Shown piece after piece: positions 3,101 through 22,541 of a stretch of DNA of 24,964 nucleotides. The translations under genes and the position numbers were made by a program. The notes under the pieces are model-generated. The model made no database searches. It saw nothing but the letters and a program-made list of their open reading frames with translations, and had not been told where the DNA came from. The stretch spans positions 1-24,964 of the forward strand of contig JBAXJR010000034.1 in the NCBI GenBank assembly GCA_037137755.1, given 5' to 3'. Numbering within the stretch: the first letter of the stretch is position 1; each line of letters starts with the position of its first letter. The DNA is from Methanomicrobiales archaeon (GTDB lineage Archaea > Halobacteriota > Methanomicrobia > Methanomicrobiales > Methanospirillaceae).

Positions 3101-3305
3101 CCTGGAGACACTGAAGCGGGATAAACTCGTGCTGGACTGGCGAAAGAAGCAGCAGACAAGGGCGATGGTCCATGTATGTATTGAGGAGACACTAGATCAT
3201 CTTCCTCCGGTGTATGAACGTGAGATCTTCAATAAAAAATGTGAAATTGTGTACCAGTACGTTTTTGATAAGTATCCGGATACGGCGGTTGGTAGCTCAG
3301 AATAG
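180..3305 (+). CDS. hsdR: Type I restriction-modification system endonuclease/translocase subunit R
   Basis: 1041 aa. Nuclease motif RADLVGFVNGLPLVFIELK, Walker A HTQGSGKS, DEAHR box, FTGTP, LTGFDAP and QTIARANR helicase motifs, plus a helical C-terminal region. Confidence 0.96.
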   Translation: MPGDYSEDTLIERPTIDLFSDLHWKTANCYNEFQPGAVSQGRETSAEVVLVPRLRAALEQLNPGVPADAIGLAIEELVKVRSTMSLVNANREVFGLIRDGVKVSFRNKSGEMVVETLRVIDWNIPANNDFFLASQFWITGDLYKRRADLVGFVNGLPLVFIELKASHRDLKQGFEGNLRDYKNTIPQLFRYNAFIILSNGSKSIIGTISSEWEHFADWKRINSEGETGIISLDTMIAGTCDRQRLLDIIENFTLFFEAKGGLIKVLAKNHQYLGVNNAISALKEIKKNEGRLGVFWHTQGSGKSYSMILFAQKVLRKLPGNWTFLVVTDRLELDEQIYNNFVHSGAIHDAQARAESGSDLQRLLSEDHRYVFTLVQKFRSDPFTSYPVLTTRDDIIVIADEAHRTQYDALALNMRTALPNAAFIAFTGTPLIQTEEKTREVFGEYVSIYTYRQSTEDGATVPLYYENRIPELQLTNENFKAEMEQVIDEAALNPAEEARLEREFAREYHLITRNERLDRVAEDIVSHFTGRGWQGKGMVVSIDKATAVRMYEKVRKYWGLELNRLKTETSRVTGEELTLLNEKIDLMERTDMGVVVSQSQNEAEDLGRKGIDILPHRKRMVNEDLAEKFKDPKDPFRLVFVCAMWLTGFDAPACSTIYLDKPMKNHTLMQTIARANRVFGEKVNGLIVDYYGVFKDLQRALAIYAPGLGTGDVMPVQDKQALVSNLKTIIDDTTAFCTLKGIDVNKLMQANKFEKVKLIDDAVEAILIDDESKQKFLGNTAVITRLFRAIKPDPIVNDLLPICTLYLVLAMKIKSLDPAVDITRLMASIEELLDRSIASEGYTIKAPTILDLSQVNLDVLADKLKKQNKRTEAERLRKLLEQRVHKMVDINRTRIDFLVRLQQMIEEYNAGSHNIEDFFRKLVEFTNELNEEDKRALKENLTEEELTIFDLLTKPEMKLSKAQEVEVKKVAKELLETLKRDKLVLDWRKKQQTRAMVHVCIEETLDHLPPVYEREIFNKKCEIVYQYVFDKYPDTAVGSSE

Positions 3306-3582: not shown

Positions 3583-5526
3583 ATGTGGATCTTTGATTCC
3601 ACCTACAGGGACGGCGGGATCGATCTCTGGACAAAGGAGGGGACCGTCTCAAAAGTCCATCACGCGTATGCCCCTCCATTCTCTGTGCATTTCCACGACC
3701 CAGACGCTCATCATGAGATGATCGACGCACTGATAGAGCGGTACGATGCGAGGGAATGCACTATTCGGACTATCTTCGGGAAAATCCCGGGTTATGAGGT
3801 CTTTGCGGGCCGGGATATTGCGGAAGCGATCGAGAAACAGGCACAGTTTGACGTAGAGATTTTCAATGTGGATATCCGCCGCGACCAGCGATTTATGGCA
3901 GAACATAGTATCTTTCCTTGTGCTGGGGAGCAGGACGACCGCTTTTCTCCGGTGATTGAACACGATCTTTCTATCATAGAAATCCGTATCAAAGAAGACC
4001 CTGGGATTTCATCACAAATGGAGATCGAAGTCGTTCATGAAAGCAATGATACACTGACCGGACCCACTTGCGACGTGTTCACTGATCTTTTCTCCCTGAT
4101 CGTAACCCTTGACCCGGATGTCGTCCTTATGCCGAATGCCGATACATTGATGCCGAGGATCCGGAACCTGGCAAGGGATCATGGACTTGTCATGCCCTTC
4201 TCGCGAAACGGGAAGTATCGACAAATGGACTCCCGCTCGTACTGGAGTTACGGTAGGGTTGAACACAAGGAATCGGCCCTGATTCCGGATGGGCGCATTC
4301 TGATCGATACAGAACAGTCATTTATGTTCCAGGAAGGGGGGCTTGAAGGGGTGCTCATGGGCGCCCGGCTCTCGGGACTCTCCCCGAACCTTGCGTCCCG
4401 GTTCACTCCCGGCACGCTCATCAGCAGTTACGAATGCTACGAAGCAGTGAAACTGGGAATCGCGGTACCGTTCCGGAAGAGTGACCCGGAGAAGATCCGA
4501 AAGGTATCGGCTCTTCAGGCAGCAGACCGCGGAGGGATGATGTTCCAGCCTAAACCGGGGACCTATGAGAATGTCGATGAGATCGATTTCACTTCCATGT
4601 ATCCCTCTATCATCGTGATGGCAAATCTTTCGCCCGAAACGGTAGGACATCCGGAGCGTCCAGGGTTCCTTCCGGAGGTGCTCGCCCCACTGCTCGAACT
4701 CCGTATCAAGACCAAGCACCTCAAGAAGACGGATAAACAATTTGCGGGAATCGATGCGATCCTGAAATGGATGCTAGTCACGTGTTTCGGCTATACCGGG
4801 TATAAAAATGCGAAGTTCGGGAGGATCGAGGTTCATGAAGGGATCACGGGAAGGTCCCGTGACATACTGCTGCAAACGAAAGACATCGCAGAGGCCATGA
4901 ATTTCCGTATACTTCATGGGATTGTGGACTGTCTCTGGGTGCAGGGTTCACCGGTAAATGCACTCAAGGAACGGGTCGAGCAGGAGACCGGTCTGCTCCT
5001 TGAGGTTGAGAACTTCGACTGGATTGTCTTTCTCCCGCTCGCGGACGGATTTGGGGCTTATAACAGGTATTACGGCAGATTGTCGGACGGAAGCATTAAG
5101 ATCCGGGGTATTGCTGCGAGGCGACACGACACACCGGATTATATCCGCTCGATGCAGCAACGGATGCTGGATGTCATGGCGGGTGCAAAGACAATTGCAG
5201 ACCTCGAAATGGTCCGGGAACAGGTTTCAATAATTTTCAGGGAAACGTTGGATAGCCTTCCTTCAGCAGATCCAATGCAGATGGTGATCAACCGTCGGAT
5301 TAGCAAGCTCAGTTATACCCACCGGTGTTTCGAGGGGGCTGCGGTGCAGGCCTGTCAGGATCACGGGATCAGGATTGCACCCGGTATGAAGATTCAATAC
5401 GTAGTCACCGATGCGAAGAAGTACCGGGTAGATCTGCCCTGGTGTGCTGAGTCGTTCGATCATTCGTATTATCGCAAGTTGATTGAGAAAGCATTTGAAG
5501 AGATCATATTAGCTTTTCAGAAGTGA
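3583..5526 (+). CDS. polB2: Family B DNA polymerase, archaeal PolB2 group (degenerate catalytic motifs)
   Basis: 647 aa. Motif A DFTSMYPSII; motif B LKWMLVTCFGYTGY (canonical KxxxNSxYG); motif C HGIVDCLWV (canonical YGDTDS); NRYYG and KIRGI motifs. No recognisable 3'-5' exonuclease motifs. GAGG just upstream of the ATG. Confidence 0.85.
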   Translation: MWIFDSTYRDGGIDLWTKEGTVSKVHHAYAPPFSVHFHDPDAHHEMIDALIERYDARECTIRTIFGKIPGYEVFAGRDIAEAIEKQAQFDVEIFNVDIRRDQRFMAEHSIFPCAGEQDDRFSPVIEHDLSIIEIRIKEDPGISSQMEIEVVHESNDTLTGPTCDVFTDLFSLIVTLDPDVVLMPNADTLMPRIRNLARDHGLVMPFSRNGKYRQMDSRSYWSYGRVEHKESALIPDGRILIDTEQSFMFQEGGLEGVLMGARLSGLSPNLASRFTPGTLISSYECYEAVKLGIAVPFRKSDPEKIRKVSALQAADRGGMMFQPKPGTYENVDEIDFTSMYPSIIVMANLSPETVGHPERPGFLPEVLAPLLELRIKTKHLKKTDKQFAGIDAILKWMLVTCFGYTGYKNAKFGRIEVHEGITGRSRDILLQTKDIAEAMNFRILHGIVDCLWVQGSPVNALKERVEQETGLLLEVENFDWIVFLPLADGFGAYNRYYGRLSDGSIKIRGIAARRHDTPDYIRSMQQRMLDVMAGAKTIADLEMVREQVSIIFRETLDSLPSADPMQMVINRRISKLSYTHRCFEGAAVQACQDHGIRIAPGMKIQYVVTDAKKYRVDLPWCAESFDHSYYRKLIEKAFEEIILAFQK

Positions 5527-5628
5527 ATAGCGTGGTGGTAAAGGCCTCTATTCGCCATTTAATTCGAATTGAATCCCCAATTCTTCAAATAGGTTTAAAT
5601 CCTCATCTTTCCTAAATAGGCTACAACA

Positions 5629-5826
5629 ATGGCTAAATATTCAAGGCATGACGAATCCGTCCTTCATCCAGCCACCTCAAAGAGTAATTCGCTAAGAACA
5701 ACAGTCCCTGCATATATCGTGAACCAGTTCAACCTCAAGAAGGGAGACAAATTAAGTTGGGGTATTGAAGATGGGTCAGTTGTTATCCAGATGGCCAAAC
5801 AGGAAAAAGAAATCATACGCTCTTAA
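5629..5826 (+). CDS. AbrB/MazE/SpoVT-family swapped-hairpin DNA-binding protein
   Basis: 65 aa. SNSLRTTVPAYIVNQFNLKKGDKLSW matches the AbrB-type S-x-x-x-x-(I/V)-P...L-x-x-G-D-x-L pattern. TTTAAAT box at 5594-5600. Confidence 0.8.
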   Translation: MAKYSRHDESVLHPATSKSNSLRTTVPAYIVNQFNLKKGDKLSWGIEDGSVVIQMAKQEKEIIRS

Positions 5827-6142
5827 TTGTAGTCCGACAAGACACTTTTTTAACTTCACTCCCGGATAAATCGTAGATCAATACAAACGAATGTTGTAGT
5901 GGCCTTGGTCTGGAACGGGTTGTAATATGCAGATCGATCGTTTGAGAAATGTCATAAAATTCTCACCTGGCCCTTATGGGAGAATGGCATTAGCTGTAGA
6001 AAGGGAAAATAAGGGGCTCTAAAAAATCGGCCTGATGGAAAGTCCGTTTAGCACATACCTACCGCGGTGCACGGAAAAAAAGCGATTCCTTTATTGTAAT
6101 AGATAGAGAGTAACTGCTAATCAATTACAAACGTGAACCAAA

Positions 6143-7051
6143 ATGCCTGTCCCAGATTTTCAAAAAGTCCTGCTCCCTCTACTTACAATAGCAAACGATA
6201 AGAAAGAACATTCCGTCAGTGAGGCATCGGAGAAATTAGCAAATGATATTTTCCATTTGAGTGCTGATGAAAGAAAAGAAACTCTTCCAAGTGGCACCCA
6301 ATCGAAATTTGATAATCGGGTAGGCTGGGCTAAAACATATCTAGTAAAGGCGGGTTTATTAACTGTTCCAAAACGAGGAATATTTTGTATTACAGAACGC
6401 GGTGCTTCTGTTTTGGCAGCAAACCCAGGAGAATTAAGTTCTAATTATTTAATGAAATTTCCCGAGTTCCAGGAGTTTCAGCATCGCACCCGGGATGAAC
6501 AAGTCACAACTACTGATGTTTTAACGACTGCACAAACGCCAGATGAAATTATTGATTCTAATTATGTATCCCTTCGTTCACAGCTCGCGTCAGAGCTTAT
6601 TGAGCGGGTGAAAAAATGCTCACCGAAATTCTTTGAAGAGTTAGTTGTTGATCTCATTGTCACAATGGGCTATGGAGGTTCGATTCAGGATGCAGGGAAG
6701 GCAGTTGGTCAGAGTGGTGATGGTGGGATTGATGGAATAATCAAGGAAGATAAACTTGGTCTTGATGCGGTTTACATCCAGGCGAAACGATGGGAGGGTA
6801 GTGTGGGTCGCCCGGTAATTCAGTCATTTTCAGGAAGTCTTGACGGGCACAAGGCAAAGAAAGGAATCGTGATCACCACCTCTCAATTTACACAAGATGC
6901 ACGGGATTATGTTACCAAAATCGATAAGAAAATTGTGCTTATCGACGGTGAATATCTCGCTCAATTGATGATTGACAATAATATCGCCGTGACAACAGAG
7001 AAGACATACGAGATTAAAAAAATCGATTTCGATTATTTCGAGGAAAATTGA
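6143..7051 (+). CDS. mrr: Mrr-family (type IV, modification-dependent) restriction endonuclease
   Basis: 302 aa. N-terminal Mrr_N winged helix (NRVGWAKTYLVKAGLL..PKRG) and C-terminal catalytic domain (FEELVVDL, GDGGIDG, YIQAKRW, ITTSQF, LIDGE). Confidence 0.95.
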   Translation: MPVPDFQKVLLPLLTIANDKKEHSVSEASEKLANDIFHLSADERKETLPSGTQSKFDNRVGWAKTYLVKAGLLTVPKRGIFCITERGASVLAANPGELSSNYLMKFPEFQEFQHRTRDEQVTTTDVLTTAQTPDEIIDSNYVSLRSQLASELIERVKKCSPKFFEELVVDLIVTMGYGGSIQDAGKAVGQSGDGGIDGIIKEDKLGLDAVYIQAKRWEGSVGRPVIQSFSGSLDGHKAKKGIVITTSQFTQDARDYVTKIDKKIVLIDGEYLAQLMIDNNIAVTTEKTYEIKKIDFDYFEEN

Positions 7052-7072
7052 TTGTGGGAAATATCGAGACTA

Positions 7073-7519
7073 TTATCCGTTCATAACGGCCTTTACCTTA
7101 TCCCTCTTTTCCTGAGAACTTTTTAGCCACGGTGCTGATGATGCCACAAGACCCACAGCCTTCAAACCTCCGGCATCGCTTGCCTGCGATAAATCTACAC
7201 AGGCCATGCGTAGATCGCTTAATCCAGCAAGATAATCCTGTTTTGCAACGGTATATTTAGAACTCACCTGAAGGTCTGAAATAGTCTGATAATTTTTGTC
7301 GATGGTAGTGATCATCTGTTTAGATCTATCTGACATCGCCTTGACATTGATGTGATCGGGTTCCAAGTAAGGGCGGATATCAGTTCCATATAAGATCACC
7401 TCTTTCTCCGATGAACTCCACGCATTTTTGAAGTTATCATCTGCACTTGCACCCGTGCACCCGGCAAATGTCACAGCAACCAAGGCAACAGCAATTAATA
7501 AAACGAGATATTTTGCCAT
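7073..7519 (-). CDS. Putative lipoprotein, unknown function (148 aa)
   Basis: Start chosen at ATG 7519. MAKYLVLLIAVALVAVTFAGC is a basic residue, a hydrophobic stretch and a lipobox (FAGC), followed by a helical-looking mature region. Confidence 0.75.
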   Translation of the reverse strand: MAKYLVLLIAVALVAVTFAGCTGASADDNFKNAWSSSEKEVILYGTDIRPYLEPDHINVKAMSDRSKQMITTIDKNYQTISDLQVSSKYTVAKQDYLAGLSDLRMACVDLSQASDAGGLKAVGLVASSAPWLKSSQEKRDKVKAVMNG

Positions 7520-8096
7520 AGTGAGACCGTATAACCTAACCAATTAAAAAGGTATGTCTGTTAGATAGGTGGATCAAAGTGCATCCGTTACCGGCGACCA
7601 CGACCAGGGATCGACAGGGTTGATAGAAAACCAACCTAAATACGCCCGAATTACCGAATAATCCTTAAAACCGGGGTATCCATACCTATCCCAAATCATT
7701 TAACCCCATTCCTGTTCGTCTAAATCGCCCGGATTCGCCTCCTTTTACCTCCGGTAGCAAATACACCCATTTATGACGATTTTACCCTGATTTGGCCTAT
7801 ATATGGCCTTTATTCGAGTTTTATCCTTTTTAAAGATAACATAAAAGGCCTCGTTTCCTCCTCGGAATTGCCATTTTCGGTCTTTCGCAATCGGGAGATC
7901 GGCCCGGCGACCGCTCATCAAGGAGGTCAGGATTATTACCGGGGTGTTAATGTGTGATAAGAGGATAGATTTCCGCAATATTGAGAATTAAGGCAATCCA
8001 CATCAGGACAGGCGTACCAATCATCCTCCACGCGAGCTTTGATATAATTCCCTGTCCATATATTAGACCAGCAAAGAAATGCAGGGGAGATTATCC

Positions 8097-8246
8097 GTGG
8101 CAAAACCGATTGAAATTGGCCTTGTGCTCGAAGGAAAAGATGCAATAGCATTCCAGAAGTACCTGGAGCACCCGACATTTACCCGTGAAGGCCTGGCTCT
8201 GATGCGTGAAGCAAAGCGCGATGCAGAGCAAGCCGGCATTGAATAA
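8097..8246 (+). CDS. 49-aa putative antitoxin partner of the downstream GNAT
   Basis: GTG start preceded by GGAGA. Translates as MAKPIEIGLVLEGKDAIAFQKYLEHPTFTREGLALMREAKRDAEQAGIE*. The stop is 15 nt before the GNAT ATG. Below the ORF-track size cutoff. Confidence 0.7.
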   Translation: MAKPIEIGLVLEGKDAIAFQKYLEHPTFTREGLALMREAKRDAEQAGIE

Positions 8247-8261
8247 AACCGGACTATCGAA

Positions 8262-8795
8262 ATGGTCTCCTCCATCCCTTTTGAAGATCTTACCTTTGTT
8301 CTTCTCAGTGCTGATCATGATTTGTCCGGGTTTCATTCGGCCGAACCAGAACTTGATGAATTTTTGAAAGAAGACGCACTCGAAAACCAGCGTAATCTTA
8401 TTTCTGTGACACGACTGGTATTCTGGAAAGGGGACCTTGTCGGATATTTTACCCTCATCAATGACAGCATCGAAGTAAGGGCTGTCGAAGAGTGTGACCG
8501 TGAGGAGCGTTATCATTTCCGGAAATACCCGGCACTGAAGATTGCACGGCTGGCAACCCATTGCGATTGTGAGCGATTTGGGGTAGGGCGTAGTATGCTA
8601 CGGAAGATCTTCACCATCTCAATCACACTCTCCCATTATATCGGCTGCCGTATCATAACGGTCGACTCAAAATACAGTGCCGTCGATTTCTATAAAAAAT
8701 TCGCATTCAAGCAGGCAATCAGAACCCCTGGTGAAACGGTTCCGCTGTACCTCGATCTGAAGAGTGCACTCCAGCGAATCTCGCCGGATTCGTAA
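8262..8795 (+). CDS. GNAT acetyltransferase of the TacT/AtaT toxin-like type
   Basis: 177 aa. N-terminal F.S....LDEFL motif, VGYFTL, YPALKIARLA, acetyl-CoA loop ERFGVG, and IITVDSK.SAVDFYKKF.F. Confidence 0.85.
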   Translation: MVSSIPFEDLTFVLLSADHDLSGFHSAEPELDEFLKEDALENQRNLISVTRLVFWKGDLVGYFTLINDSIEVRAVEECDREERYHFRKYPALKIARLATHCDCERFGVGRSMLRKIFTISITLSHYIGCRIITVDSKYSAVDFYKKFAFKQAIRTPGETVPLYLDLKSALQRISPDS

Positions 8796-8863
8796 TTTTC
8801 TTTTCTTAAATTCACATGAACAGGAATAAAAAAAGGATGACGCTTTTTGATTGCTTACAAAAC

Positions 8864-9628
8864 CTAACCGGTGACCGGCGAAACAAATGAGGACCACTTA
8901 GCCCTCCCATTAATCGCAAACACTCCACCAGCCCCGATCTGCTCGTGCACTGCGTGAACATACCCGAGAGCTGAAGTATTCCCGATGCCGGTTAAGGATC
9001 GTGAACCCGCAGAGAACTGGCCCGAACCGTGACCGGTGGCCTCCATGTTCATCAGCATACTATCCGGTTGCCCGGTGTCACCCTGGCTGATGCCACCAGC
9101 TGAACGATAATTCAAAGCATCCGTCATGAACATCGTTGAAGCCCCTGCGTATTCGCAATAGGCCTGACGGGTAAGGTTTGCTCCCTCTGCATCGAGTGAG
9201 TCAGATCCGCAAGTAACACCTGCAGAAGGTGAACCACAGCTATCGACCATCAACGACTCCGAGAGGATCCCGGGCCCCTGGCTGTCCACCTGCTGACCTG
9301 TCGAGAACTCGAGTATTTCGTTGGTTGAAAGGCCCCGGTTACTCTCCATGGTCCCGGGTCCGGATACCAGGACGGATCCCGAATATCCTCCCTGCAGGAC
9401 TTCCTGCCCGACCCCAAGCGGAGGAGTCTTCGAGAGGTCCCCGTCAGATGCAGCCCAGGTCCAGTCCGATGAGCTGGAAAGGTACGAATCTCCCGTTGCA
9501 TAGGTCTGCACCTCGAAACCGGCAGCCTGGGCCGGGGTAATCCCGGTGCAGGCCACGCCGAGCACAACAGCCGCAAATATGCAGCCGCCGATAACCAGCT
9601 TCCTCCGCTGGGAAAGTCGCTTGATCAT
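8864..9628 (-). CDS. Hypothetical secreted protein, Gly/Ser-rich (254 aa)
   Basis: Basic N-region, hydrophobic H-region and AQA|A signal-peptidase-like site. GGGGGTG RBS. ATGA overlap with the upstream gene at 9625-9628. Confidence 0.75.
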   Translation of the reverse strand: MIKRLSQRRKLVIGGCIFAAVVLGVACTGITPAQAAGFEVQTYATGDSYLSSSSDWTWAASDGDLSKTPPLGVGQEVLQGGYSGSVLVSGPGTMESNRGLSTNEILEFSTGQQVDSQGPGILSESLMVDSCGSPSAGVTCGSDSLDAEGANLTRQAYCEYAGASTMFMTDALNYRSAGGISQGDTGQPDSMLMNMEATGHGSGQFSAGSRSLTGIGNTSALGYVHAVHEQIGAGGVFAINGRAKWSSFVSPVTG

Positions 9629-10026
9629 ATAGCCACCCCCTTCCCCGAGCCACCCGAGCCCTTGATCAGCCCGTACTCAATGTCATACCAGGCAGACGGG
9701 ACCGTAATCGTGTACGTGTCCAGCCGTTCGGCCTCGGCCTCTGCCACCTGCCGGAGCAGGCTTTCGCGCTCAACCGGTGAATGGTCAAACGTGAGCCATC
9801 GCTTCGTGCTGTCGGCCATCTTGTACGAACGGCCCTGCACCTCTGGAGGAGCAACGGTCACGGTGTCGTCGGTTGCATCAAAGTAACTCAGTACCTGATT
9901 GGTCGTTTGCTTTGCCTGCTGTGTTTCAGCGATCGCGCTTGTTGCCCTCCGGTGCTGGATATACGCAAACCCGGCGGTGGCGAATACAAAAAACAATTCA
10001 ATAACATTAGTTAATTCTGGATCCAT
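9625..10026 (-). CDS. Hypothetical protein with N-terminal membrane anchor (133 aa)
   Basis: Start at ATG 10026 (MDPELTNVIELFFVFATAGFAYIQHRR...) with GAGG upstream. One hydrophobic helix followed by basic residues. Overlaps both neighbours. Confidence 0.75.
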   Translation of the reverse strand: MDPELTNVIELFFVFATAGFAYIQHRRATSAIAETQQAKQTTNQVLSYFDATDDTVTVAPPEVQGRSYKMADSTKRWLTFDHSPVERESLLRQVAEAEAERLDTYTITVPSAWYDIEYGLIKGSGGSGKGVAI

Positions 10027-10180
10027 GATACGCCTCTTTTGATTTCTGGTGTTCTTCGCGAAGGGCCTCGAACTCTGCACAAATTACCTCGTATTTTCCG
10101 ATCCTTTCGTAGATCACAAAAAGCGAGGGGTACAGCGGGAGCACTACACCAAGAACAATAACGAGAAGTTCTACATCCAT
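10007..10180 (-). CDS. Small hypothetical membrane protein (57 aa)
   Basis: GAGGTG RBS 6 nt before ATG 10180. MDVELLVIVLGVVLPLYPSLFVIY is a TM helix, followed by a charged amphipathic tail. Overlaps the next gene by 20 nt. Confidence 0.65.
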   Translation of the reverse strand: MDVELLVIVLGVVLPLYPSLFVIYERIGKYEVICAEFEALREEHQKSKEAYHGSRIN

Positions 10181-10196
10181 CCCGGCCACCTCGAAG

Positions 10197-10258
10197 AAAA
10201 GGCAGGGGTCTGGTTAGTCCAAAGATAGAGAAGACTGGTCCTCTACCCCTGCCATTTT
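10197..10258 (-). terminator. Intra-operon stem-loop followed by a U-tract (partial terminator or stabiliser)
   Basis: Perfect 9-bp arms ggcaggggt (10201-10209) / acccctgcc (10245-10253) with inner agtc/gact pairing. On the minus strand the stem is directly followed by TTTTCTT. Confidence 0.6.
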
Positions 10259-10267
10259 CACACCTGC

Positions 10268-10774
10268 CTAAGCAAGTGCGGGCTTTGTGTTCGCCCAGGT
10301 GTTCACGCGAGCGACAATCGCATTATCCTCGTACGAGGAAATGGTGATGGCCTTTCTGGCGAATGTGACCGTATAGTCCTCGCCGTTCGCGTCGTGGCAG
10401 TTTAGTGAAATGGAATACCCTTCGGTTTCAGTGTCCTGGATGGGGTCCCCGCCGATTGCGGTCGCAAGTGCCGTGTTTCCGACAAGTGCGGTTGCAGCTG
10501 CGGAATAGCCTGCAACAGTTGATGCCTTTGCGGTCGCAGTACCCATGTTCTTCAGGGTTGTCGGGTTCTCATAGATCACACGGATGCCGAATGACTGTGT
10601 TCCACGGCTGGTCCCGGGGTGAGCCTCGCCGGCTACAACGTGGTCCACGCACTGGAATGCGTTGGTATCGATGACTCCCTGCACGAGGGTGTTCAGTGTC
10701 GCTACATCAGCGATCTTGGTCGTGATAACACGGACAGACCGCTTTACATTTGCCTTTTGGACAAAATCTGACAT
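10268..10774 (-). CDS. Hypothetical protein (168 aa), first gene of a four-gene operon
   Basis: Clean ATG-TAG ORF, Ala/Thr/Val-rich, no signal peptide. From memory it resembles an uncharacterised Methanomicrobiales family starting M(A/S)DFVQK and ending W-A-x-T-x-P-A-L-A; not verified by search. Confidence 0.85.
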   Translation of the reverse strand: MSDFVQKANVKRSVRVITTKIADVATLNTLVQGVIDTNAFQCVDHVVAGEAHPGTSRGTQSFGIRVIYENPTTLKNMGTATAKASTVAGYSAAATALVGNTALATAIGGDPIQDTETEGYSISLNCHDANGEDYTVTFARKAITISSYEDNAIVARVNTWANTKPALA

Positions 10775-10782
10775 GGTTTGGT

Positions 10783-10812
10783 AATTCCTGCCCGTTTGGG
10801 CAATCAGGAATT
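10783..10812. promoter_or_regulatory. Inverted repeat just upstream of the 168-aa gene (operator or 5'-UTR hairpin)
   Basis: aattcctg (10783-10790) / caggaatt (10805-10812), with inner ccc-gttt-ggg. It ends 8 nt before the ATG and covers the AGGA motif. Confidence 0.5.
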
Positions 10813-11015
10813 TTGGTTAAAAGGAAAAGAATAGTTAGATGGATGTCTGAACGGGCTTTCTTGCGGTGTAGGTTTGGGGATTTGAGGAGATTCTGGATTT
10901 TTCTGAATGAGGTTGGGGGTGGGGATGGGGTGATAAGAGGGCGCTTGTTGATAAAATTTGTTTCCAATGAGGATCGAACCTCTAGAATTTAAGAGCATTC
11001 GTAGTTCCTGTTCCA

Positions 11016-11195
11016 ATGCAGTTCGAAGACGAGAAGGAGAAGATCTTCGAACGAGGATACGGAAAGAACACTGGCCTTGGTTTAGCACTTTCGCGGGAGA
11101 TCCTTGATATCACCGGTATCACGATTACCGAGACTGGGGTGCCGGGCAAGGGGGCACGGTTCGAGATGTTAGTGACGAAAGGGGCATGGAGATAA
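11016..11195 (+). pseudogene. Orphan 3' fragment of a sensor histidine kinase (HATPase F/G2 region)
   Basis: Translates as MQFEDEKEKIFERGYGKNTGLGLALSREILDITGITITETGVPGKGARFEMLVTKGAWR*, clearly paralogous to the C-termini of the three full kinases in the window. No H-box or N-box upstream. Confidence 0.85.
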
Positions 11196-11292
11196 TTTTT
11201 TCCGGTCTTGGGGGTTACAGGACTATTATTTATTTATGGCCAACCATATTTTTTTTAAGGATTCAACTTTTAAAATTCTCCACAATCAGATC

Positions 11293-11374
11293 TGTATTAT
11301 TTAAAAATAATACATCAGTGATTTAATCGTTTCACCGAGCAGAAAAGATACGTATGGAGGGTTTTTAAAACCCT
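11293..11374. promoter_or_regulatory. Two palindromes upstream of the hybrid kinase
   Basis: tgtattattt-aa-aaataataca (11293-11314, 10-bp arms) and agggtttt-t-aaaaccct (11358-11374, 8-bp arms). Confidence 0.4.
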
Positions 11375-11418
11375 GAATAATTAAAACGCAAATTTCCTTT
11401 TAGCACGATACGTAAAGG

Positions 11419-11427
11419 TATGTAGTA
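11419..11427 (+). promoter_or_regulatory. Putative TATA-like element TATGTAGTA (also at 22639-22647; variant TATCTACTA at 16734-16742)
   Basis: The same motif begins 29, 30 and 29 nt before the ATGs of the three REC-kinase genes, each preceded by an A-rich stretch. Confidence 0.5.
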
Positions 11428-11447
11428 ACAGTATCCATTTGAGTTCG

Positions 11448-14354
11448 ATGTCTGCGGTTCTCCGGGTCCTCTATGTTGATGACGAACCCGGTCTGCTGGA
11501 TATTGGAAAACTCTTTCTCGAAGCAAAAGGGGAGTTTATCATCACCACGCTTTCTTCTGCGCGGGCGGCACTGGAGCTGCTAAACGCAGAGCGGTTTGAT
11601 GCAATTATCTCCGACTACCAGATGCCGGAAATGGATGGCATCCAGTTCCTTGACGAGGTACGGGCTAATTTTGGCTGGATCCCGTTTATCCTGTTCACCG
11701 GACGAGGGCGGGAAGAGGTAGTAATCCAGGCAATAAACCGTGGAGCGGACTTTTATATTCAAAAAGGTGGCGAACCACGTTCGCAGTTTGCCGAACTGGC
11801 CCATACGATCCGCCAGGCAATATCCCGGAAGAATGCAGAGGACTCCCTTCGTAACAGGGAAGAAGAATATCGGTTTTTAGTCGAACATTCAAATGAGGCA
11901 ATTATTGTAGCCCAGGATGGAATGGTCCGGTTATTCAACCACCGGATTGTGGAAATCACCGGCTATTCCGATCAGGAACTGCAGTCCATGCCGATATCCC
12001 TCCTTATTCACCCTGATGACCGTGCACCGGTGGTTGAGCGCTACCAGAAACGAATGAATGGAGAAGATACCCCCTCACAGTATAAGTTCCGGATGACTGG
12101 AAAGGAGGGACAGACAATCTGGGTAGAGATCAGTGTTATGAACATTGCCTGGGAAGGGCGTCCGGCAACGATAAATTTCCTGATCGATATAACCAGTCGC
12201 ATGCTTGCTCTGAAGGCGCTGCGGGAGAGCGAAGAACGTTTCCAGAGCTACATCAGCAATGCCCCTGACGGTATTTTTATCGCGGATGAAACAGGACGCT
12301 ACATCGAAACCAATCCCGCTGCCAGCAGGATAACCGGGTACGAAAAAGAAGAACTTTTGGCGATGCGAATTGCGGATTTGTTACCGCCAGAATCCCTTGA
12401 AGCGGGTGTTAGGAGCTTTCGGGATGTCGTTGAAACGGGCCACTCAATGTATGAACTTGCTTTCCGCCATAAGGATGGCTCTGATCGGTACTGGTCAGTT
12501 GAGGCAGTCAGGCTCCCTAACGCCACCTTAATGGGTTTTGTCAAGGATATCACGGAACGCAAACAAGCGGAAGATGAACTCCTGCTCACCAAAGCCCGGC
12601 TGGATTCAGCCATGGAGGTGGGAAAAATAGCCTGGTGGGAGATGGACTGCGTTAACGGTGCTGTATTTTTCAATGAACGGAAGGCCCGCATGCTCGATTA
12701 TCCGGCTGAACAGTTTTCTCACTATTCCGATTTTACCAGGCTTGTCCATCCCGATGATTATGAACCGATGATGCAGGGAATGCGTGACCATCTGACCGGA
12801 ATAAAAAAGATGTACGATGTCACGTACAGGATACGTAAACGGAACGGTAATTACCTGTGGACCCAGGATATCGGAGGAGTGTCCGAGTTTGCTCCTGATG
12901 GGACACCACTCAAAGTAACAGGATTTGTCATTGATGTAACAGCACGTAAACAGGTTGAAGAGGTGTTAAAAGAAAGCGAGCAGCGGTTCCATTCGATGTT
13001 TGACCGGCATAATTCCATCATGCTCCTGGTCGACCCTGAAACAGGGAATATTGCTGATGCAAACCAGGCAGCTGAACAGTTTTACGGAAGGTCAAAAACA
13101 GAACTCTGTGCACAGTCCATTACTGAGATCAACACCTTATCACCGGGGGAGATTGCTGCAGAAATGAATACGGCAGCACGGGAAAATAACAACTTTTTCA
13201 TCTTCCCGCACCGGATTGCAAGTGGTGAGATCCGGACCGTCGAAGTGCATTCTTCCCCGATTGAGGTTGGTGGAAAGACGGTCCTGTTCTCAATTATCAA
13301 TGATATCACCGGGCGTAAGCAGGTAGAGAAACAGATTAACGATGATTATAAGTTTCTGCAGACGTTAATCCAGACCATCCCCAACCCGGTCTTTTTTAAG
13401 GACCGGAATGGTTTGTATACGGGTTGTAACAAGGCTTTCGAAACCTTCCTTGGCAGTTCAAGCAGCGAGTTGATCGGGAAAACAGTTTATGAAACGGCCC
13501 CGAAAGATGTTGCTGATGAGTATTTCCGAATGGACGAGGAACTGTTCAATAATCCTGGAACCCAACAGTATGAGTCACGGATCATAATGAAAAGTGGCCA
13601 GATCCGCCATGTAATTTTCGATAAAGCTACCATTCTGGATATTAATGGAGAGGTCACCGGAATTATCGGGGTGGTATCTGATATCACTTCACGAAAAGAA
13701 GCTGAAATGCTAATTTCCCTGATGAATAAAAAGCTGGCTCTCCTATCCGGTATCACCCGGCACGACATCGGCAACCAGCTTTCGGTGATCCTGGGATACC
13801 TCGATATGTTGAAGAGTAAGCTGCACGATCCAGCTCTTAACGAGTATTTCAAGACCATATCCCGGTCAGCAAAACAGATCTCCAGGATGATCCAATTTGC
13901 GAAAGACTACGAGCTCATTGGTGTCCATGCCCCCACCTGGCAGGACTGCCGGACACTTGTAGAATCCGCCGCAAAGGAGTCCGCACTGGGAAATGTCGAA
14001 GTAAAGAACAATATTCCTGCCGGGGTGGAAGTTTTCGCGGACCCCCTGATAAGCAAGGTCTTCTATAACCTCGTGGATAACGCTGTCCGGTATGGTGGGA
14101 AGATCACTACGATCCAGTTTTTAATTGAGGAATCCGGCGGTGATAATGTGATCATATGTGAAGATGATGGGGAGGGTATACCGGCCGGAGAAAAAGAAAT
14201 GATCTTCATGCAAGGCTATGGAAAGCATACCGGGATTGGCCTGGCTTTTTCGCGGGATATCCTTTCGATTACTGGTACTACTATCTGCGAGACAGGTGAA
14301 CCAGGTAAGGGTGCCAGGTTCGAGATGGCGGTGCCGATGGGGATGTTCAGGTAA
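11448..14354 (+). CDS. Hybrid sensor histidine kinase: REC + 5 PAS + HisKA-like + HATPase
   Basis: REC (VLYVDDE, ISDYQMP, FTGRG), five PAS/PAC units ending in D(I/V)T, H-box ITRHDIGNQL, N-box YNLVDNAVRYG, CEDDGEGI, GKHTGIGL. ATG 11448 preferred to TTG 11439. Confidence 0.95.
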   Translation: MSAVLRVLYVDDEPGLLDIGKLFLEAKGEFIITTLSSARAALELLNAERFDAIISDYQMPEMDGIQFLDEVRANFGWIPFILFTGRGREEVVIQAINRGADFYIQKGGEPRSQFAELAHTIRQAISRKNAEDSLRNREEEYRFLVEHSNEAIIVAQDGMVRLFNHRIVEITGYSDQELQSMPISLLIHPDDRAPVVERYQKRMNGEDTPSQYKFRMTGKEGQTIWVEISVMNIAWEGRPATINFLIDITSRMLALKALRESEERFQSYISNAPDGIFIADETGRYIETNPAASRITGYEKEELLAMRIADLLPPESLEAGVRSFRDVVETGHSMYELAFRHKDGSDRYWSVEAVRLPNATLMGFVKDITERKQAEDELLLTKARLDSAMEVGKIAWWEMDCVNGAVFFNERKARMLDYPAEQFSHYSDFTRLVHPDDYEPMMQGMRDHLTGIKKMYDVTYRIRKRNGNYLWTQDIGGVSEFAPDGTPLKVTGFVIDVTARKQVEEVLKESEQRFHSMFDRHNSIMLLVDPETGNIADANQAAEQFYGRSKTELCAQSITEINTLSPGEIAAEMNTAARENNNFFIFPHRIASGEIRTVEVHSSPIEVGGKTVLFSIINDITGRKQVEKQINDDYKFLQTLIQTIPNPVFFKDRNGLYTGCNKAFETFLGSSSSELIGKTVYETAPKDVADEYFRMDEELFNNPGTQQYESRIIMKSGQIRHVIFDKATILDINGEVTGIIGVVSDITSRKEAEMLISLMNKKLALLSGITRHDIGNQLSVILGYLDMLKSKLHDPALNEYFKTISRSAKQISRMIQFAKDYELIGVHAPTWQDCRTLVESAAKESALGNVEVKNNIPAGVEVFADPLISKVFYNLVDNAVRYGGKITTIQFLIEESGGDNVIICEDDGEGIPAGEKEMIFMQGYGKHTGIGLAFSRDILSITGTTICETGEPGKGARFEMAVPMGMFR

Positions 14355-15320: not shown

Positions 15321-16196
15321 TTAACTTTCACATCCTGGCCGGATAGCCTTCAAATATCCGGGGACCCCGGTTGAAACCACAATATCCGCTTCGGTAACCG
15401 ATGACCGGCCTGCCCGTTCGGCAGCCATTACACTCCACTTCACCAGGTGAATTCCTGCCCGCACATCCCCGGCCGGCTCGATGTGACTGACAAGAAATGA
15501 GAGCATTCCGGGGGGTATGACACCTGGGTGAAGCCCGGCCTGAATCCTGTCGTGGAGGATTTCCCTCATGTGCTTCTTTTGGTAGAGCGGGAAATTGATT
15601 TTGTCAGGTTTGAGGTCGGAAGTGAAACAGGAATCCAGGGCTAACCTCAGGTTAACCTCCATATCACTCGTCATAAGGAGGAATCCCACCTTCGCTTTCG
15701 GGTATTTCTTTGAAAGGCCGAGGAATGAGGAGAGAATGTCATCGAGGAGATGGTTCGGCAGGTGGTGGTCCGCATTGTCAAAACACGCAACAAGGACCGC
15801 CTCTCTTTGACTGATTGTCTTACCGATCAGTTCGATAAGCGGGCCTATCGTTTGCCCCTTGGGCACGGACTTTTGGATATGAAGTTCCTCGAATATCCTG
15901 GCGAAAACACCGAATTTTGATCCTTCCACATGGAAGTTGATGTATACCGGAATAATACCCTCATGAGACGCACCGATTTCAGAAAATATCCTGTTGATTG
16001 CGGTTGTCTTACCGGTCCCGGGCGGACCCCGGATCACCAGGTTAACCGGGCTGTTGCCTTGAAGTCCCGATTGTATCGCAGAAACAATTTTAGTGACCTG
16101 GGCCTCCCGGAACCGAAATATTTCCGGGATGAAATCCATTTCGAATACGTCACGGTCGAGGAACAGGGTCTCTTTCATTTCGAAGTATTTCTTCAT
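15321..16196 (-). CDS. cdc6: Cdc6/Orc1-family AAA+ ATPase paralogue, C-terminally truncated and degenerate
   Basis: 291 aa. LFLDRDVFEMDFIPE..FRE.Q N-terminus, Walker A GPPGTGKT, VYIN, altered Walker B (CFDNADH), FPLY, GDVRAGI sensor 2. It ends after the AAA lid with no winged-helix domain. Confidence 0.8.
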   Translation of the reverse strand: MKKYFEMKETLFLDRDVFEMDFIPEIFRFREAQVTKIVSAIQSGLQGNSPVNLVIRGPPGTGKTTAINRIFSEIGASHEGIIPVYINFHVEGSKFGVFARIFEELHIQKSVPKGQTIGPLIELIGKTISQREAVLVACFDNADHHLPNHLLDDILSSFLGLSKKYPKAKVGFLLMTSDMEVNLRLALDSCFTSDLKPDKINFPLYQKKHMREILHDRIQAGLHPGVIPPGMLSFLVSHIEPAGDVRAGIHLVKWSVMAAERAGRSSVTEADIVVSTGVPGYLKAIRPGCES

Positions 16197-22361: not shown

Positions 22362-22541
22362 TTTGCCTACAATAAAGAAAGGTTGCCTGATGCCCGGGAC
22401 CTGGCTCGATCCGCCCGGTTATCGATGTCTGGCCGGGCGTTGAATATTACTATCGGGTCTGTTTATTACACGGTGCCGTTACGATCGTTTTTAGCTGTGT
22501 TGGATGGCAGGAACAGGAAGGCGGCGGTATTTGTTGGGAAA
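22362..22541 (+). pseudogene. Probable fragment of an unknown gene (partly repeated at 15202-15290)
   Basis: Open frame ...DARDLARSARLSMSGRALNITIGSVYYTVPLRSFLAVLDGRNRKAAVFVGK. It looks protein-like but has no good start or RBS, and begins right after the kinase-tail fragment. Confidence 0.5.

What the first reader, a model, noticed from the sequence alone, without database searches (positions are those of the whole stretch)
8864..10812. Uncharacterised four-gene envelope-spanning operon with built-in stoichiometry control
Seen: on the minus strand, a soluble 168-aa gene, then a stem-loop with U-tract, then three overlapping genes each with its own RBS (57-aa single-TM, 133-aa N-anchored, 254-aa secreted Gly/Ser-rich with a Cys cluster). 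None matches a family I can name. Inference: an abundant first product plus translationally coupled minor membrane and secreted parts is the layout of an assembly with one major subunit. Candidates are a virus-derived structural or egress module (holin-like small TM proteins), a vesicle or particle system, or a surface appendage. No terminase, portal, integrase or ATPase is adjacent, so it may be a domesticated mini-module. This is the best candidate for an undescribed system in the window.
Basis: partly seen in the sequence, partly recalled or inferred. Interest (0 to 1): 0.72.

Follow-up and report, generated by a model that had tools for sequence, protein, structure and literature searches.

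The report
Orphan operon of methanogen mobile elements
Four real but unnamed genes form an operon that recurs many times in one order of methanogens, usually at the far end of small integrating DNA elements that carry no known capsid gene, so it is the best candidate for how these elements act at the cell envelope or leave the cell.

Summary
All four minus-strand genes sit where stated: A (168 aa), B (57 aa), C (133 aa) and D (254 aa). All four are under purifying selection. A hairpin with a T-tract lies between A and B.

None of the four proteins matches Pfam, PHROGs, NCBIfam, PADLOC or PDB sequences. The predicted folds of A and D have no convincing structural relative.

The operon is not a single-copy oddity. 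This genome holds four complete A-B-C-D copies and two truncated A-only copies. The A family was found in 44 of 47 sampled Methanomicrobiales genomes and in 0 of 253 other genomes of the phylum.

The conserved core is A plus a tiny membrane protein. C and D are one of at least three alternative downstream sets.

A-operons lie far more often than chance just downstream of a replication module. That module is integrase, nuclease, small protein e3, a ~1000-aa ATPase/zinc-finger replication protein (e2) and Orc1/Cdc6. It matches the small integrated elements that Makarova et al. 2014 proposed as capsid-less "satellite viruses".

The window's copy has lost that replication half. Only a truncated Orc1/Cdc6 gene remains, and the copy lies in a toxin-antitoxin/restriction island.

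Function is still inferred. An envelope-acting exit or particle module is my best guess. A lysis cassette, an addiction module and a host surface operon remain open.

The parts
10268..10774 (-). Gene A, 168 aa, soluble. It is the founding member of a multi-copy family specific to Methanomicrobiales. The model shows two beta-alpha-beta4-alpha half-domains. The N-terminus (MADFVQ-type), the CHDANGE loop and the C-terminus (W-A-D-x-x-P-A-L-A) are conserved.
10775..10928 (-). Upstream leader/promoter region of A. It is conserved at 94% with the same cassette type in a sister genome, and homology stops at about 10928. The other paralogous copies share only about 40 nt before the ATG.
10194..10253 (-). 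GC-rich hairpin (10201-10253) plus T-tract (10194-10200) between A and B. It is a candidate attenuator or terminator. Its position is conserved in related operons.
10007..10180 (-). Gene B, 57 aa: an N-terminal TM helix followed by a conserved amphipathic tail (KIG-x-Y ... EF-x-x-LR-x-EH).
9625..10026 (-). Gene C, 133 aa: an N-terminal TM anchor, HRR directly after it, then a domain of about 100 aa. It overlaps B by 20 nt.
8864..9628 (-). Gene D, 254 aa: a strongly conserved N-terminal hydrophobic anchor/signal segment, then an all-beta domain with long strands and conserved Cys residues. It is the most divergent of the four genes between copies.
8867..8879 (-). Short hairpin just upstream of D's stop codon (8864-8866), with a T-rich run following (past the stop). 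It is terminator-like and marks the end of the repeated unit: nucleotide homology between copies ends at about 8880.
15321..16196 (-). Truncated Orc1/Cdc6 gene (291 aa against about 400 aa in intact elements). It is the remnant of the element's replication half. In a sister genome the same remnant lies between the replication protein and the cassette.
11016..11195 (+). C-terminal fragment (59 aa) of a histidine-kinase gene just beyond the upstream end of cassette homology. It marks the rearranged junction.

Best explanation
The four genes form one operon. It is the conserved non-replicative end module of a family of small integrative elements found only in Methanomicrobiales.

The layout of an intact element is: tyrosine integrase, Holliday-junction-resolvase-type nuclease, small protein e3, a ~1000-aa P-loop/HTH/zinc-finger replication protein (e2), often Orc1/Cdc6, variable cargo, and then A-B-(C-D) directly next to host genes. 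In this window the replication half has decayed. Only a truncated Orc1/Cdc6 gene is left, histidine-kinase genes have intruded, and the operon stands alone in a toxin-antitoxin/restriction island.

How it works (inferred): a promoter and a strong ribosome-binding site give much A. The hairpin and T-tract let only part of the transcripts run on. B, C and D are then made in small, coupled amounts through their overlapping start and stop codons.

B, C and D would sit in the membrane. D's beta-rich domain would face outside, and C's soluble domain, possibly also B's tail, would face inside. A would work with them at the envelope as the abundant component.

The role I think most likely is the element's exit or transfer: building or releasing a membrane-derived particle. 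D would be the exposed, fast-changing part.

Shown: the genes, their conservation, their copy number, the order-specific range and the link to the elements. Inferred: expression ratios, topology, assembly and function.
For: **Real genes.** dN/dS is 0.07-0.24 in all four genes.

**Copies in this genome.** There are four complete copies and two truncated A-only copies. Nucleotide homology between copies is limited to 8880-10774, that is, exactly the four ORFs.

**Range.** A was found in 37 of 41 relatives. It was found in 44 of 47 genomes of the order and in 0 of 253 other genomes of the phylum.

**Core.** Of 40 metagenome loci with at least 2 kb downstream of A, 12 are A-B-C-D, 14 are A-B-c26-c6, 8 are A-c22 and 6 are other.

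**Element link.**
- Of 31 metagenome loci with at least 5.5 kb upstream of A, 8 have e2 on the same strand, and 12 have e2, e3 or Cdc6.
- By my reading of the tables, 14 of 38 full-length e2 copies in 41 genomes have an A within 15 kb on the same contig. I expect roughly 4% by chance (my own estimate).
- The order integrase-e3-e2-...-A-B, all on one strand, occurs in L082 and in G003:C305.
- G010:C182 carries nuclease, e2, a Cdc6 remnant, then an A-B-C-D cassette 94% identical to the window's, with the host gene cbiM following directly.

**Published counterpart.** Makarova et al. 2014 (PMC4158269; passages read) describe small integrated elements of this kind. These carry a primase/helicase/HTH/Zn-finger protein (arCOG07809, example from Methanosphaerula), an associated HJR nuclease and integrases. 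The authors note the absence of any capsid gene and propose a satellite virus.

**Envelope link.**
- A is nearly always followed by a tiny TM protein (38 of 40 loci).
- Of 112 full-length A-domain proteins, 4 have an N-terminal lipobox or TM anchor fused with no internal start. A fifth type has a lipoprotein-like leader.
- D is anchored and all-beta.

**Attenuator.** 38 of 68 spacers have the hairpin plus T-run, against 20 of 340 shuffles.
Against: - No protein of the operon resembles any known virion, vesicle or egress protein. PHROGs gave no hit. BFVD gave no hit at E <= 0.001. A has no relatives in IMG/VR, in phage records or in plasmid records.
- A is not tied to the elements. Twelve of the 37 A-positive genomes show no e2, including a 99%-complete genome with 6 A matches. 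Most A loci have no e2 nearby. Some e2 elements have no A within their contig (C58 and C59).
- In contigs C54 and C10 of this genome, ordinary cellular genes lie between e2 and the operon. Co-location in islands, or integration next to the operon, could therefore explain part of the linkage.
- Within the genus, A (88-94% identity) is far better conserved than e2 (48-58% identity). That is unusual for a structural gene.
- Lipoprotein-anchored variants of A are odd for a capsid-like protein.
- Abundance of A is not shown. The RNA evidence is only short metatranscriptome contigs at 85-99% identity.
Confidence: 0.4

Rival explanations
1. It is a lysis or egress cassette. B would be a holin-like pore former. 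A would be a leaderless envelope-degrading enzyme released through B. C and D would be helpers that link the membrane to the S-layer. This would be the functional analogue of holin, endolysin and spanins, for hosts whose wall is a protein layer.
For: - The core across the order is A plus a tiny single-TM protein.
- Most A proteins have no leader, but a minority carry signal, lipobox or signal-anchor N-termini. From my own knowledge, the same split occurs among phage endolysins.
- A has invariant or near-invariant C42, C126, H127, D128, E132, R15 and R140. These could form an active or metal site.
- The operon lies on integrative elements, at their distal end.
Against: - A matches no peptidase or hydrolase family or fold.
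- A terminator-like hairpin that favours A over B is the wrong way round for a lysin/holin pair.
- By the positive-inside rule, C should have its domain in the cytoplasm, unlike an inner spanin (sequence reading).
- A is very well conserved across an order, whereas lysins are usually modular and diverse (my own knowledge).
- Many intact copies lie far from any element.
Confidence: 0.17
2. It is an addiction or exclusion module. The small membrane protein B would be toxic or would block entry, and the abundant A would hold it in check or sense infection. The module spreads and persists selfishly, like toxin-antitoxin and abortive-infection genes.
For: - The module is multi-copy, with variable copy number (1 to 12 matches per genome).
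- Its contexts are scattered and non-syntenic.
- In this window it sits between three toxin-antitoxin pairs, Mrr and a type I restriction gene.
- The order of an abundant first gene and a weakly expressed small TM second gene fits an antitoxin-then-toxin logic.
- Decayed copies are common.
- Cassette types are swapped between conserved loci in sister genomes.
Against: - PADLOC, Pfam and NCBIfam give no toxin, antitoxin or defence match. The one weak hit of B to a 4TM effector has E = 0.019.
- The 80-150 nt spacer with a hairpin is unlike tightly coupled toxin-antitoxin pairs.
- An externally exposed D and the alternative multi-TM partner c6 have no place in a simple two-part addiction module.
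Confidence: 0.15
3. It is an ordinary host cell-surface operon, serving for example adhesion, envelope maintenance or lipid handling. It merely lies at spots where the elements integrate or recombine, so the link to mobile DNA says nothing about its function.
For: - A is nearly universal in the order (44 of 47 genomes) and is present in 12 genomes without e2.
- A follows host relatedness: about 90% identity within the genome, 63-67% within the genus, 37-49% across families. e2 copies are about 50% identical both within and between families.
- The operon always abuts host genes at the element's edge. Cellular genes separate it from e2 in C54 and C10.
- D's best, though weak, structural match is the open beta-jellyroll of LptA (Z 7.7, 99 residues, rmsd 4.3).
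Against: - There is no conserved chromosomal neighbourhood, even in genomes with a single copy.
- Many truncated and stop-containing copies exist.
- Copy numbers of up to a dozen are untypical of housekeeping surface genes.
- In compact elements, A lies 1.4-3.4 kb from e2 on the same strand with no host gene between (G003:C305, G030:C4, G031, G242).
Confidence: 0.15

Closest known systems
Small integrated elements with the arCOG07809 primase-polymerase/helicase/HTH/Zn-finger protein (Makarova, Wolf, Forterre, Prangishvili, Krupovic, Koonin 2014, Extremophiles 18:877; PMC4158269, passages read)
   Same: - The host group is the same; the paper's example is from Methanosphaerula.
- The elements are small.
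- There is a large replication protein with a P-loop, HTH and C-terminal zinc fingers. In my e2 alignment, AAA_22 matched in 8 of 12 members and HTH_23 in 5 of 12, both weakly, and conserved Cys pairs are present.
- An HJR-type nuclease lies next to it.
- Tyrosine integrases are present.
- There is no recognisable capsid gene.
   Different: - The passages I read do not mention the A-B-C-D operon or any conserved non-replicative module. I did not see Figure 7 itself or the supplements.
- I could not test membership of e2 in arCOG07809, because no arCOG library was available. The primase motifs are my own reading of the alignment.
- The window holds only the operon and a Cdc6 remnant, not the replication protein.
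Phage lysis cassettes (holin, endolysin, inner and outer spanin), recalled from general knowledge
   Same: - Both have four small genes on a mobile element.
- In both, the genes are one soluble protein, one tiny TM protein, one N-anchored protein and one protein with a signal/lipobox-like N-terminus.
- Both have overlapping reading frames.
- Both show leaderless and signal-bearing variants of the soluble protein.
   Different: - There is no sequence or fold match to any holin, lysin or spanin family.
- The gene order and the attenuator favour the soluble protein.
- The predicted topology of C is opposite to that of an inner spanin.
- The host has an S-layer, not murein plus an outer membrane.
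Structural gene blocks of small membrane-containing or filamentous viruses (pleolipoviruses, fuselloviruses, inoviruses), recalled from general knowledge
   Same: - Both have a compact one-direction block.
- In both, an abundant first product is separated by a terminator from small TM proteins and from a Gly/Ser-rich, Cys-containing exposed protein that varies fastest.
- Both are carried by a small replicon with an integrase.
   Different: - No homology was found to any of their proteins (PHROGs, BFVD, IMG/VR, phage records).
- No morphogenesis ATPase was seen among the neighbours scanned.
- A is acidic and soluble, not a hydrophobic coat protein and not a basic nucleoprotein.
TBP-like / KA1 / SRPBCC alpha+beta half-barrel folds (structural class only)
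   Same: In the model, the first half of A has the strand-helix-four-strand-helix order of a TBP-like repeat. The best structural alignments are to such domains: METTL16 VCR at Z 7.4, adaptin appendage, Aha1, Bet v 1-like proteins, RnlA NRD, and archaeal TBP at Z 5.4.
   Different: All Z values are below 8, and only about 70-100 of 168 residues align. The tool itself warns that such scores are common for unrelated models. Foldseek TM-scores are 0.2-0.35. No function can be drawn from these matches.

Membership tests
arCOG07809-type small integrative elements (Makarova et al. 2014) | A large primase/ATPase/HTH/Zn-finger replication protein within the element | tested here: not met
   tblastn with five e2 proteins finds none on the window's contig C34. 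The protein is present next to the same cassette type in G010:C182 and in many other loci. The window therefore holds a fragment of such an element, not a whole one.
arCOG07809-type small integrative elements (Makarova et al. 2014) | An associated HJR/PD-(D/E)xK nuclease and a tyrosine integrase | tested here: not met
   Neither is present in the window in that role. Mrr at 6143-7051 is a full type IV restriction enzyme. In relatives, an Mrr_cat/Hjc nuclease lies beside e2 in C58 and in G010:C182. Phage_integrase genes lie in L082 and in G003:C305.
arCOG07809-type small integrative elements (Makarova et al. 2014) | Sequence membership of the replication protein in arCOG07809 | not testable with these tools
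   No arCOG library was available. Pfam gives only weak P-loop, HTH and Zn hits, and PDB gives none.
Holin/endolysin/spanin lysis cassette | A soluble protein with a known wall- or envelope-degrading domain | tested here: not met
   A has no hit in Pfam, PHROGs or NCBIfam. No fold match to hydrolases was found.
Holin/endolysin/spanin lysis cassette | A small TM protein that forms membrane lesions | not tested
   B has the size and one TM helix. No holin family match was found. Pore formation needs an experiment.
Type II toxin-antitoxin or abortive-infection system | A recognised toxin, antitoxin or defence-effector domain | tested here: not met
   There are no significant hits in PADLOC, Pfam or NCBIfam for A-D. 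The only hit is B against a 4TM effector at E = 0.019.
Known archaeal or bacterial virus structural proteins | Sequence or fold similarity to a capsid, coat, spike or nucleoprotein family | tested here: inconclusive
   PHROGs gave none. BFVD Foldseek gave none at E <= 0.001 for A. D was not searched against BFVD. IMG/VR and phage records hold no relative of A. A missing match does not exclude a new structural protein type.
TBP-like fold superfamily (for protein A) | A confident structural superposition over a whole domain | tested here: inconclusive
   The best Z is 7.4 (87 residues, rmsd 2.8). TBP itself scores Z 5.4. Foldseek probability is at most 0.75 with TM below 0.35.

The most novel reading that the evidence does not exclude
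The A-operon is the morphogenesis and exit module of a so far unrecognised family of small archaeal viruses, or of vesicle-borne plasmids, specific to Methanomicrobiales. A would be a major particle protein with a new fold. The tiny TM protein B would be its membrane partner. D, or the alternative partners c26/c6, would be the exchangeable host-recognition part. The many solo copies would be the remains of, or recombination targets for, such elements. This would supply the missing "capsid" of the elements that Makarova et al. 2014 called putative satellite viruses.
Probability: 0.25. Interest if true: 0.8.

Novelty: new variant of a known kind. Interest (0 to 1): 0.6.

Why it matters
Very few viruses and mobile elements of methanogens are known, and almost none for the S-layer-only Methanomicrobiales. 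This is a gene set present in nearly every genome of that order, in up to a dozen copies. It has two confidently modelled folds without known relatives.

It is also the only conserved non-replicative part of a family of integrating elements whose way of spreading is unknown. If it builds or releases particles, it defines a new virus or vesicle type in a group that matters for methane emission. If it is a lysis or addiction module, it gives the first handle on how such elements kill or hold their hosts.

Either way, it offers four small, well-defined proteins and cultured carriers (Methanoregula, Methanolinea, Methanolacinia and others, by the source names). The question is therefore directly testable.

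Tried and rejected
- **Family scans of A-D.** Pfam, PHROGs, NCBIfam and PADLOC gave nothing usable.
- **PDB sequence profiles.** Profiles for A, D and e2 gave nothing below E = 0.07.
- **Fold searches.**
  - A: no Foldseek hit at E <= 0.001 in PDB or BFVD. The VIA wide search gave a best Z of 7.4, which is generic.
  - D: one Foldseek hit at E = 3.5e-4 to a perforin-2 pore, but with TM 0.11. I reject it as long-hairpin resemblance only. The best VIA match is LptA at Z 7.7.
- **ESM Atlas.** There was no usable hit for A. D gave only scores of 0.81-0.82, which is within the noise range.
- **Rfam** on 8000-11500 gave no match.
- **Complex prediction of A with B.** No verdict was returned (score 0.01, controls not run). 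This says nothing either way. It used the only job, so homo-oligomers of A could not be tried.
- **Metatranscriptome contigs.** Two runs from two studies cover parts of A, C and D at 85-99% identity, and nothing over 10086-10316. The contigs are too short and too mixed to show a step-down or even transcription of this strain.
- **Viral, phage and plasmid collections** hold no relative of A.
- **Repeats in the window.** I tested whether the repeated stretches at 5566-5870 and 7628-7892 are cassette-separating repeats like those noted earlier in this genome. One is a small toxin-antitoxin-type gene (MazE-like at 5629-5826). The other holds an unnamed small ORF. Neither is a separator.
- **Circularity of contig C54.** I looked for a circular contig, which would mean an episome. 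The missing start of A is not at the other end of the contig.
- **att repeat.** I looked for one beside the tRNA-Gly that flanks one element in G031. No direct repeat of 12 nt or more was found.
- **Literature.** Two full-text searches ran. They found no description of these proteins.
Full report
**1. What is in the sequence**

On the minus strand the window carries four genes and one structured spacer.
- A: 10268-10774, 168 aa.
- A GC-rich hairpin at 10201-10253, followed by TTTTCTT at 10194-10200.
- B: 10007-10180, 57 aa.
- C: 9625-10026, 133 aa. It overlaps B by 20 nt.
- D: 8864-9628, 254 aa. Its ATG overlaps C's TGA.

Each start has a GGAG/GAGGTG-type motif in front of it.

Taken alone, the hairpin is unremarkable: -32.6 kcal/mol, z = -1.06. 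Its place, however, is kept. In 38 of 68 distinct spacers between A and the following small TM gene in related loci, a hairpin of dG <= -10 is directly followed by at least four T. The figure for shuffled spacers is 20 of 340.

All four frames are genuine genes. Between the paralogous copies in this genome, dN/dS is 0.07-0.24, at dS of 0.4 to above 2.

**2. No known family**

A, B, C and D have no hit in Pfam, PHROGs, NCBIfam or PADLOC. They have none among PDB sequences.

*Protein A.* AlphaFold2 on a 42-sequence alignment gives a confident model, with mean pLDDT 90.7.
- The model shows a ten-stranded sheet with four helices, in two beta-alpha-beta4-alpha-like halves.
- Only residues 1-7 are disordered, although that N-terminus (M-A-D-F-V-Q) is among the best conserved parts.
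- Also conserved are a C-H-D-A-N-G-E hairpin and the C-terminal W-A-D-x-x-P-A-L-A.
- Foldseek finds nothing at E <= 0.001 in PDB or BFVD.
- The exhaustive VIA search peaks at Z 7.4, on TBP-like, KA1 and Bet v 1-like half-barrels. The tool itself rates that range as common for unrelated models.

*Protein D.* The model has pLDDT 77.3 and is all-beta with strands of up to 25 residues.
- Its best matches are LptA (Z 7.7) and assorted barrels. They are again generic.
- D's N-terminal hydrophobic segment is its most conserved part. It therefore looks like a retained anchor rather than a discarded signal peptide.

*B and C.* C has basic residues (HRR) straight after its TM helix. In B the residues after the helix are R/K offset by E, so its orientation is unclear. 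C's soluble domain probably faces the cytoplasm. This is my reading of the sequence and is not tested.

**3. A multi-copy, order-specific family**

*Copies in this genome.*
- It holds complete A-B-C-D cassettes on contigs C34 (the window), C10, C6 and C54.
- Truncated solo A genes lie on C43 and C20.
- Nucleotide similarity between copies runs from 8880 to 10774 and stops there. This means from about 15 nt beyond D's stop to A's ATG.

*Range.*
- A relatives occur in 37 of 41 related genomes, with 1 to 12 matches each, many of them fragments or with stops.
- With a profile, A is found in 44 of 47 sampled genomes of the order and in 0 of 253 genomes of other orders of the phylum.
- The exhaustive profile search counts 595 clusters at 50% identity.
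- All named members are "hypothetical protein", from Methanoregula, Methanolinea, Methanoregulaceae, Methanolacinia or Methanomicrobiales.
- The C and D families are likewise unnamed and narrower.

**4. What is conserved around A**

I compared 45 loci from 18 genomes and 80 metagenome loci. The constant partner is a tiny single-TM protein right after A. It is B in Methanoregulaceae, and c22 or c17 elsewhere.

Of the 40 metagenome loci with at least 2 kb downstream of A:
- 12 are A-B-C-D;
- 14 are A-B-c26-c6, where c26 is a soluble protein of about 160-200 aa and c6 is a multi-TM protein;
- 8 are A-c22;
- 6 are other combinations.

In three other families of the order, a small tail-anchored coiled-coil protein (c2) sits divergently upstream of A (12 loci, 7 genomes).

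The four-gene order is thus real but lineage-specific. The core is A plus a small membrane protein.

**5. The link to mobile elements**

*A replication module near A.* A set of genes recurs near A.
- e2, a protein of about 850-1060 aa. It has no strong family hit.
- Across 12 aligned e2 members there is an invariant GKGKS P-loop, weak AAA and HTH matches, and C-terminal Cys pairs.
- e3, a small protein just upstream of e2.
- Orc1/Cdc6.

*How often e2 lies near A.*
- In five complete or near-complete genomes, 4 of 11 full-length e2 copies lie within 3 kb of an A.
- Across the 41 relatives, by my reading of the tables, 14 of 38 full-length e2 copies have an A within 15 kb on the same contig, 11 of them downstream on the same strand. 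My rough chance expectation is about 4%.
- Of 31 metagenome loci with at least 5.5 kb upstream of A, 8 have e2 on the same strand, and 12 have e2, e3 or Cdc6.

*Two loci with the whole layout on one strand.*
- L082: host aminotransferase, tyrosine integrase, small ORFs, e2, three small ORFs, a TPR protein, A, B.
- G003:C305: integrase, e3, e2, and A only 1.5 kb further on, then B.

*The most telling comparison.* G010:C182 carries, in order:
- an HJR-type nuclease;
- e2;
- a Cdc6 remnant, 78% identical to window 15323-15656;
- an A-B-C-D cassette 94% identical to the window's;
- the host gene cbiM, about 120 nt further on.

The window has the same Cdc6 remnant at 15321-16196. Between it and A lie a response regulator and a histidine kinase, and no e2 is present.

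The window's cassette is therefore the surviving end of such an element.

**6. Known counterpart**

Makarova et al. 2014 (PMC4158269; I read the passages found, but not the figures or supplements) describe "yet uncharacterized putative elements".
- They encode arCOG07809 (Mpal_2033 of Methanosphaerula palustris), a protein with primase, helicase, HTH and Zn-finger domains.
- They are associated with an HJR nuclease (arCOG09441), and some carry integrases.
- The authors note the absence of capsid genes and propose an integrated satellite virus.

The domain make-up and the neighbours of e2 fit this description. I could not test membership in the arCOG. Those passages do not mention the A-operon.

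**7. Points that complicate the simple picture**

- A is more widespread than e2. Twelve of the 37 A-positive genomes show no e2, including a 99%-complete genome with six A matches. Two A-negative genomes do have e2.
- In C54 and C10 of this genome, ordinary genes lie between e2 and the cassette: SnoaL, CDGSH, isochorismatase and MscL in C54; a binding protein and a cation efflux protein in C10. In C54 the order is also permuted, with the cassette before e3-e2.
- A copies are 88-94% identical within this genome, while e2 copies are 48-58% identical.
- Cassette types move between loci. G011:C18 has a C6/C54-type cassette (74% nucleotide identity to the window's) directly beside lipoprotein and Mrr genes that are 95% identical to window 6798-7527. 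G010 has the window-type cassette at the cbiM locus, where this genome (C6) has another type.
- B is identical between C6 and C54, while the adjacent C gene has dS 0.54.

These last points indicate recombination or gene conversion among cassettes. Cassettes might even serve as landing pads for the elements.

**8. Where A acts**

Most A proteins have no leader. Among 112 full-length A-domain proteins, however, four carry an N-terminal lipobox or TM anchor fused without an internal start codon. A fifth type, also seen in G032, has a lipoprotein-like leader in frame.

The A domain can therefore work while tethered to the membrane, probably on its outer face. Together with the obligatory small TM partner and the anchored, beta-rich, fast-diverging D, this places the module's action at the envelope.

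**9. Mechanism**

I commit to the following, at about 0.4 overall. The split is about 0.7 that the operon is an element module and about 0.3 for the specific role.
- The operon is the exit or transfer module of these integrative elements.
- A is made in excess.
- The hairpin and T-tract pass a minority of transcripts on to the translationally coupled B, C and D.
- B, C and D form a small membrane complex.
- A and this complex build or release a membrane-derived particle, with D as the exposed, variable part.

The rivals, detailed in their own section, are:
- a holin/lysin-like lysis cassette (0.17);
- an addiction or exclusion module (0.15);
- a host surface operon that merely flanks integration spots (0.15).

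None of them can be excluded with the data in hand.

**10. Novelty and limits**

The kind of element has been noted in print. Its conserved second module, the four protein families and their folds have not been described, as far as two full-text searches and four family libraries show.

Several things remain untested.
- Expression levels are not measured. The RNA evidence is too thin.
- The one complex prediction, A with B, returned no verdict.
- Homo-oligomers of A remain untested.
- att sites were not found.

Noticed in passing
window 3583-5526 (+): A 647-aa family B DNA polymerase gene lies between a type I restriction R subunit (180-3305) and the toxin-antitoxin/Mrr island. A 69%-identical stretch lies on contig C1. 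I did not examine whether it is a cellular paralogue or an element-borne polymerase.
   Followed up: no
window 5500-8800: This is a dense island of small addiction and defence genes. It holds a MazE-like antitoxin (5629-5826), Mrr type IV restriction (6143-7051), a lipoprotein (7073-7543, minus strand), small unnamed ORFs at 7574-7978 that recur on other contigs, and a GNAT acetyltransferase with a small upstream partner (8079-8795). Sister genomes lack parts of it: G011 joins the cassette directly to the lipoprotein gene, and G010:C72 lacks the GNAT pair.
   Followed up: partly
window 22381-22541: A 160-nt stretch is 76-83% identical to the small gene (o8, about 145 aa, no family) that follows e2 in contigs C54 and C59, and to a site beside e2 in C10. 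It is probably a remnant of a second element, in the opposite orientation.
   Followed up: partly
L019 (G014:C1) 5415-6000: In this single-copy genome, the spacer between A and B is 586 nt long. It is filled with about ten tandem copies of a unit of about 45 nt (TCTCATGAACGATGCAC...GATCCCTTGCGAGGT). I found no explanation.
   Followed up: no
L044-L048 (G310:C1, five loci): In this genome, each of five A copies is preceded on the same strand by the same block of small genes: 49 aa, about 120 aa, an HNH/HTH protein of about 175 aa, and about 190 aa. This looks like a different multi-copy element that also carries A.
   Followed up: no
proteins P0227, P0243, P0250, P0235, P0220; L022 3821-4504: These natural variants of protein A have an N-terminal lipoprotein signal, a signal anchor or a multi-TM domain fused in frame. 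In one type, the ADFV motif of the N-terminus is duplicated in the leader.
   Followed up: partly
window 11016-11195 (+) and contigs C43, C20: The last roughly 59 codons of a histidine-kinase gene lie just upstream of A in the window. In C43 and C20, complete kinase genes end about 100 nt before the truncated solo A genes. Kinase arrays and A copies seem to be shuffled together, and A copies often sit at contig ends in fragmented assemblies.
   Followed up: partly
L011/L054 (G031:C1 about 2225900-2233500): This is a compact element of about 7.5 kb lying directly beside a tRNA-Gly gene. It carries A, c2, a small wHTH-like protein, Orc1/Cdc6, e2 and e3. No integrase was seen, and no direct repeat of 12 nt or more was found.
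   Followed up: partly
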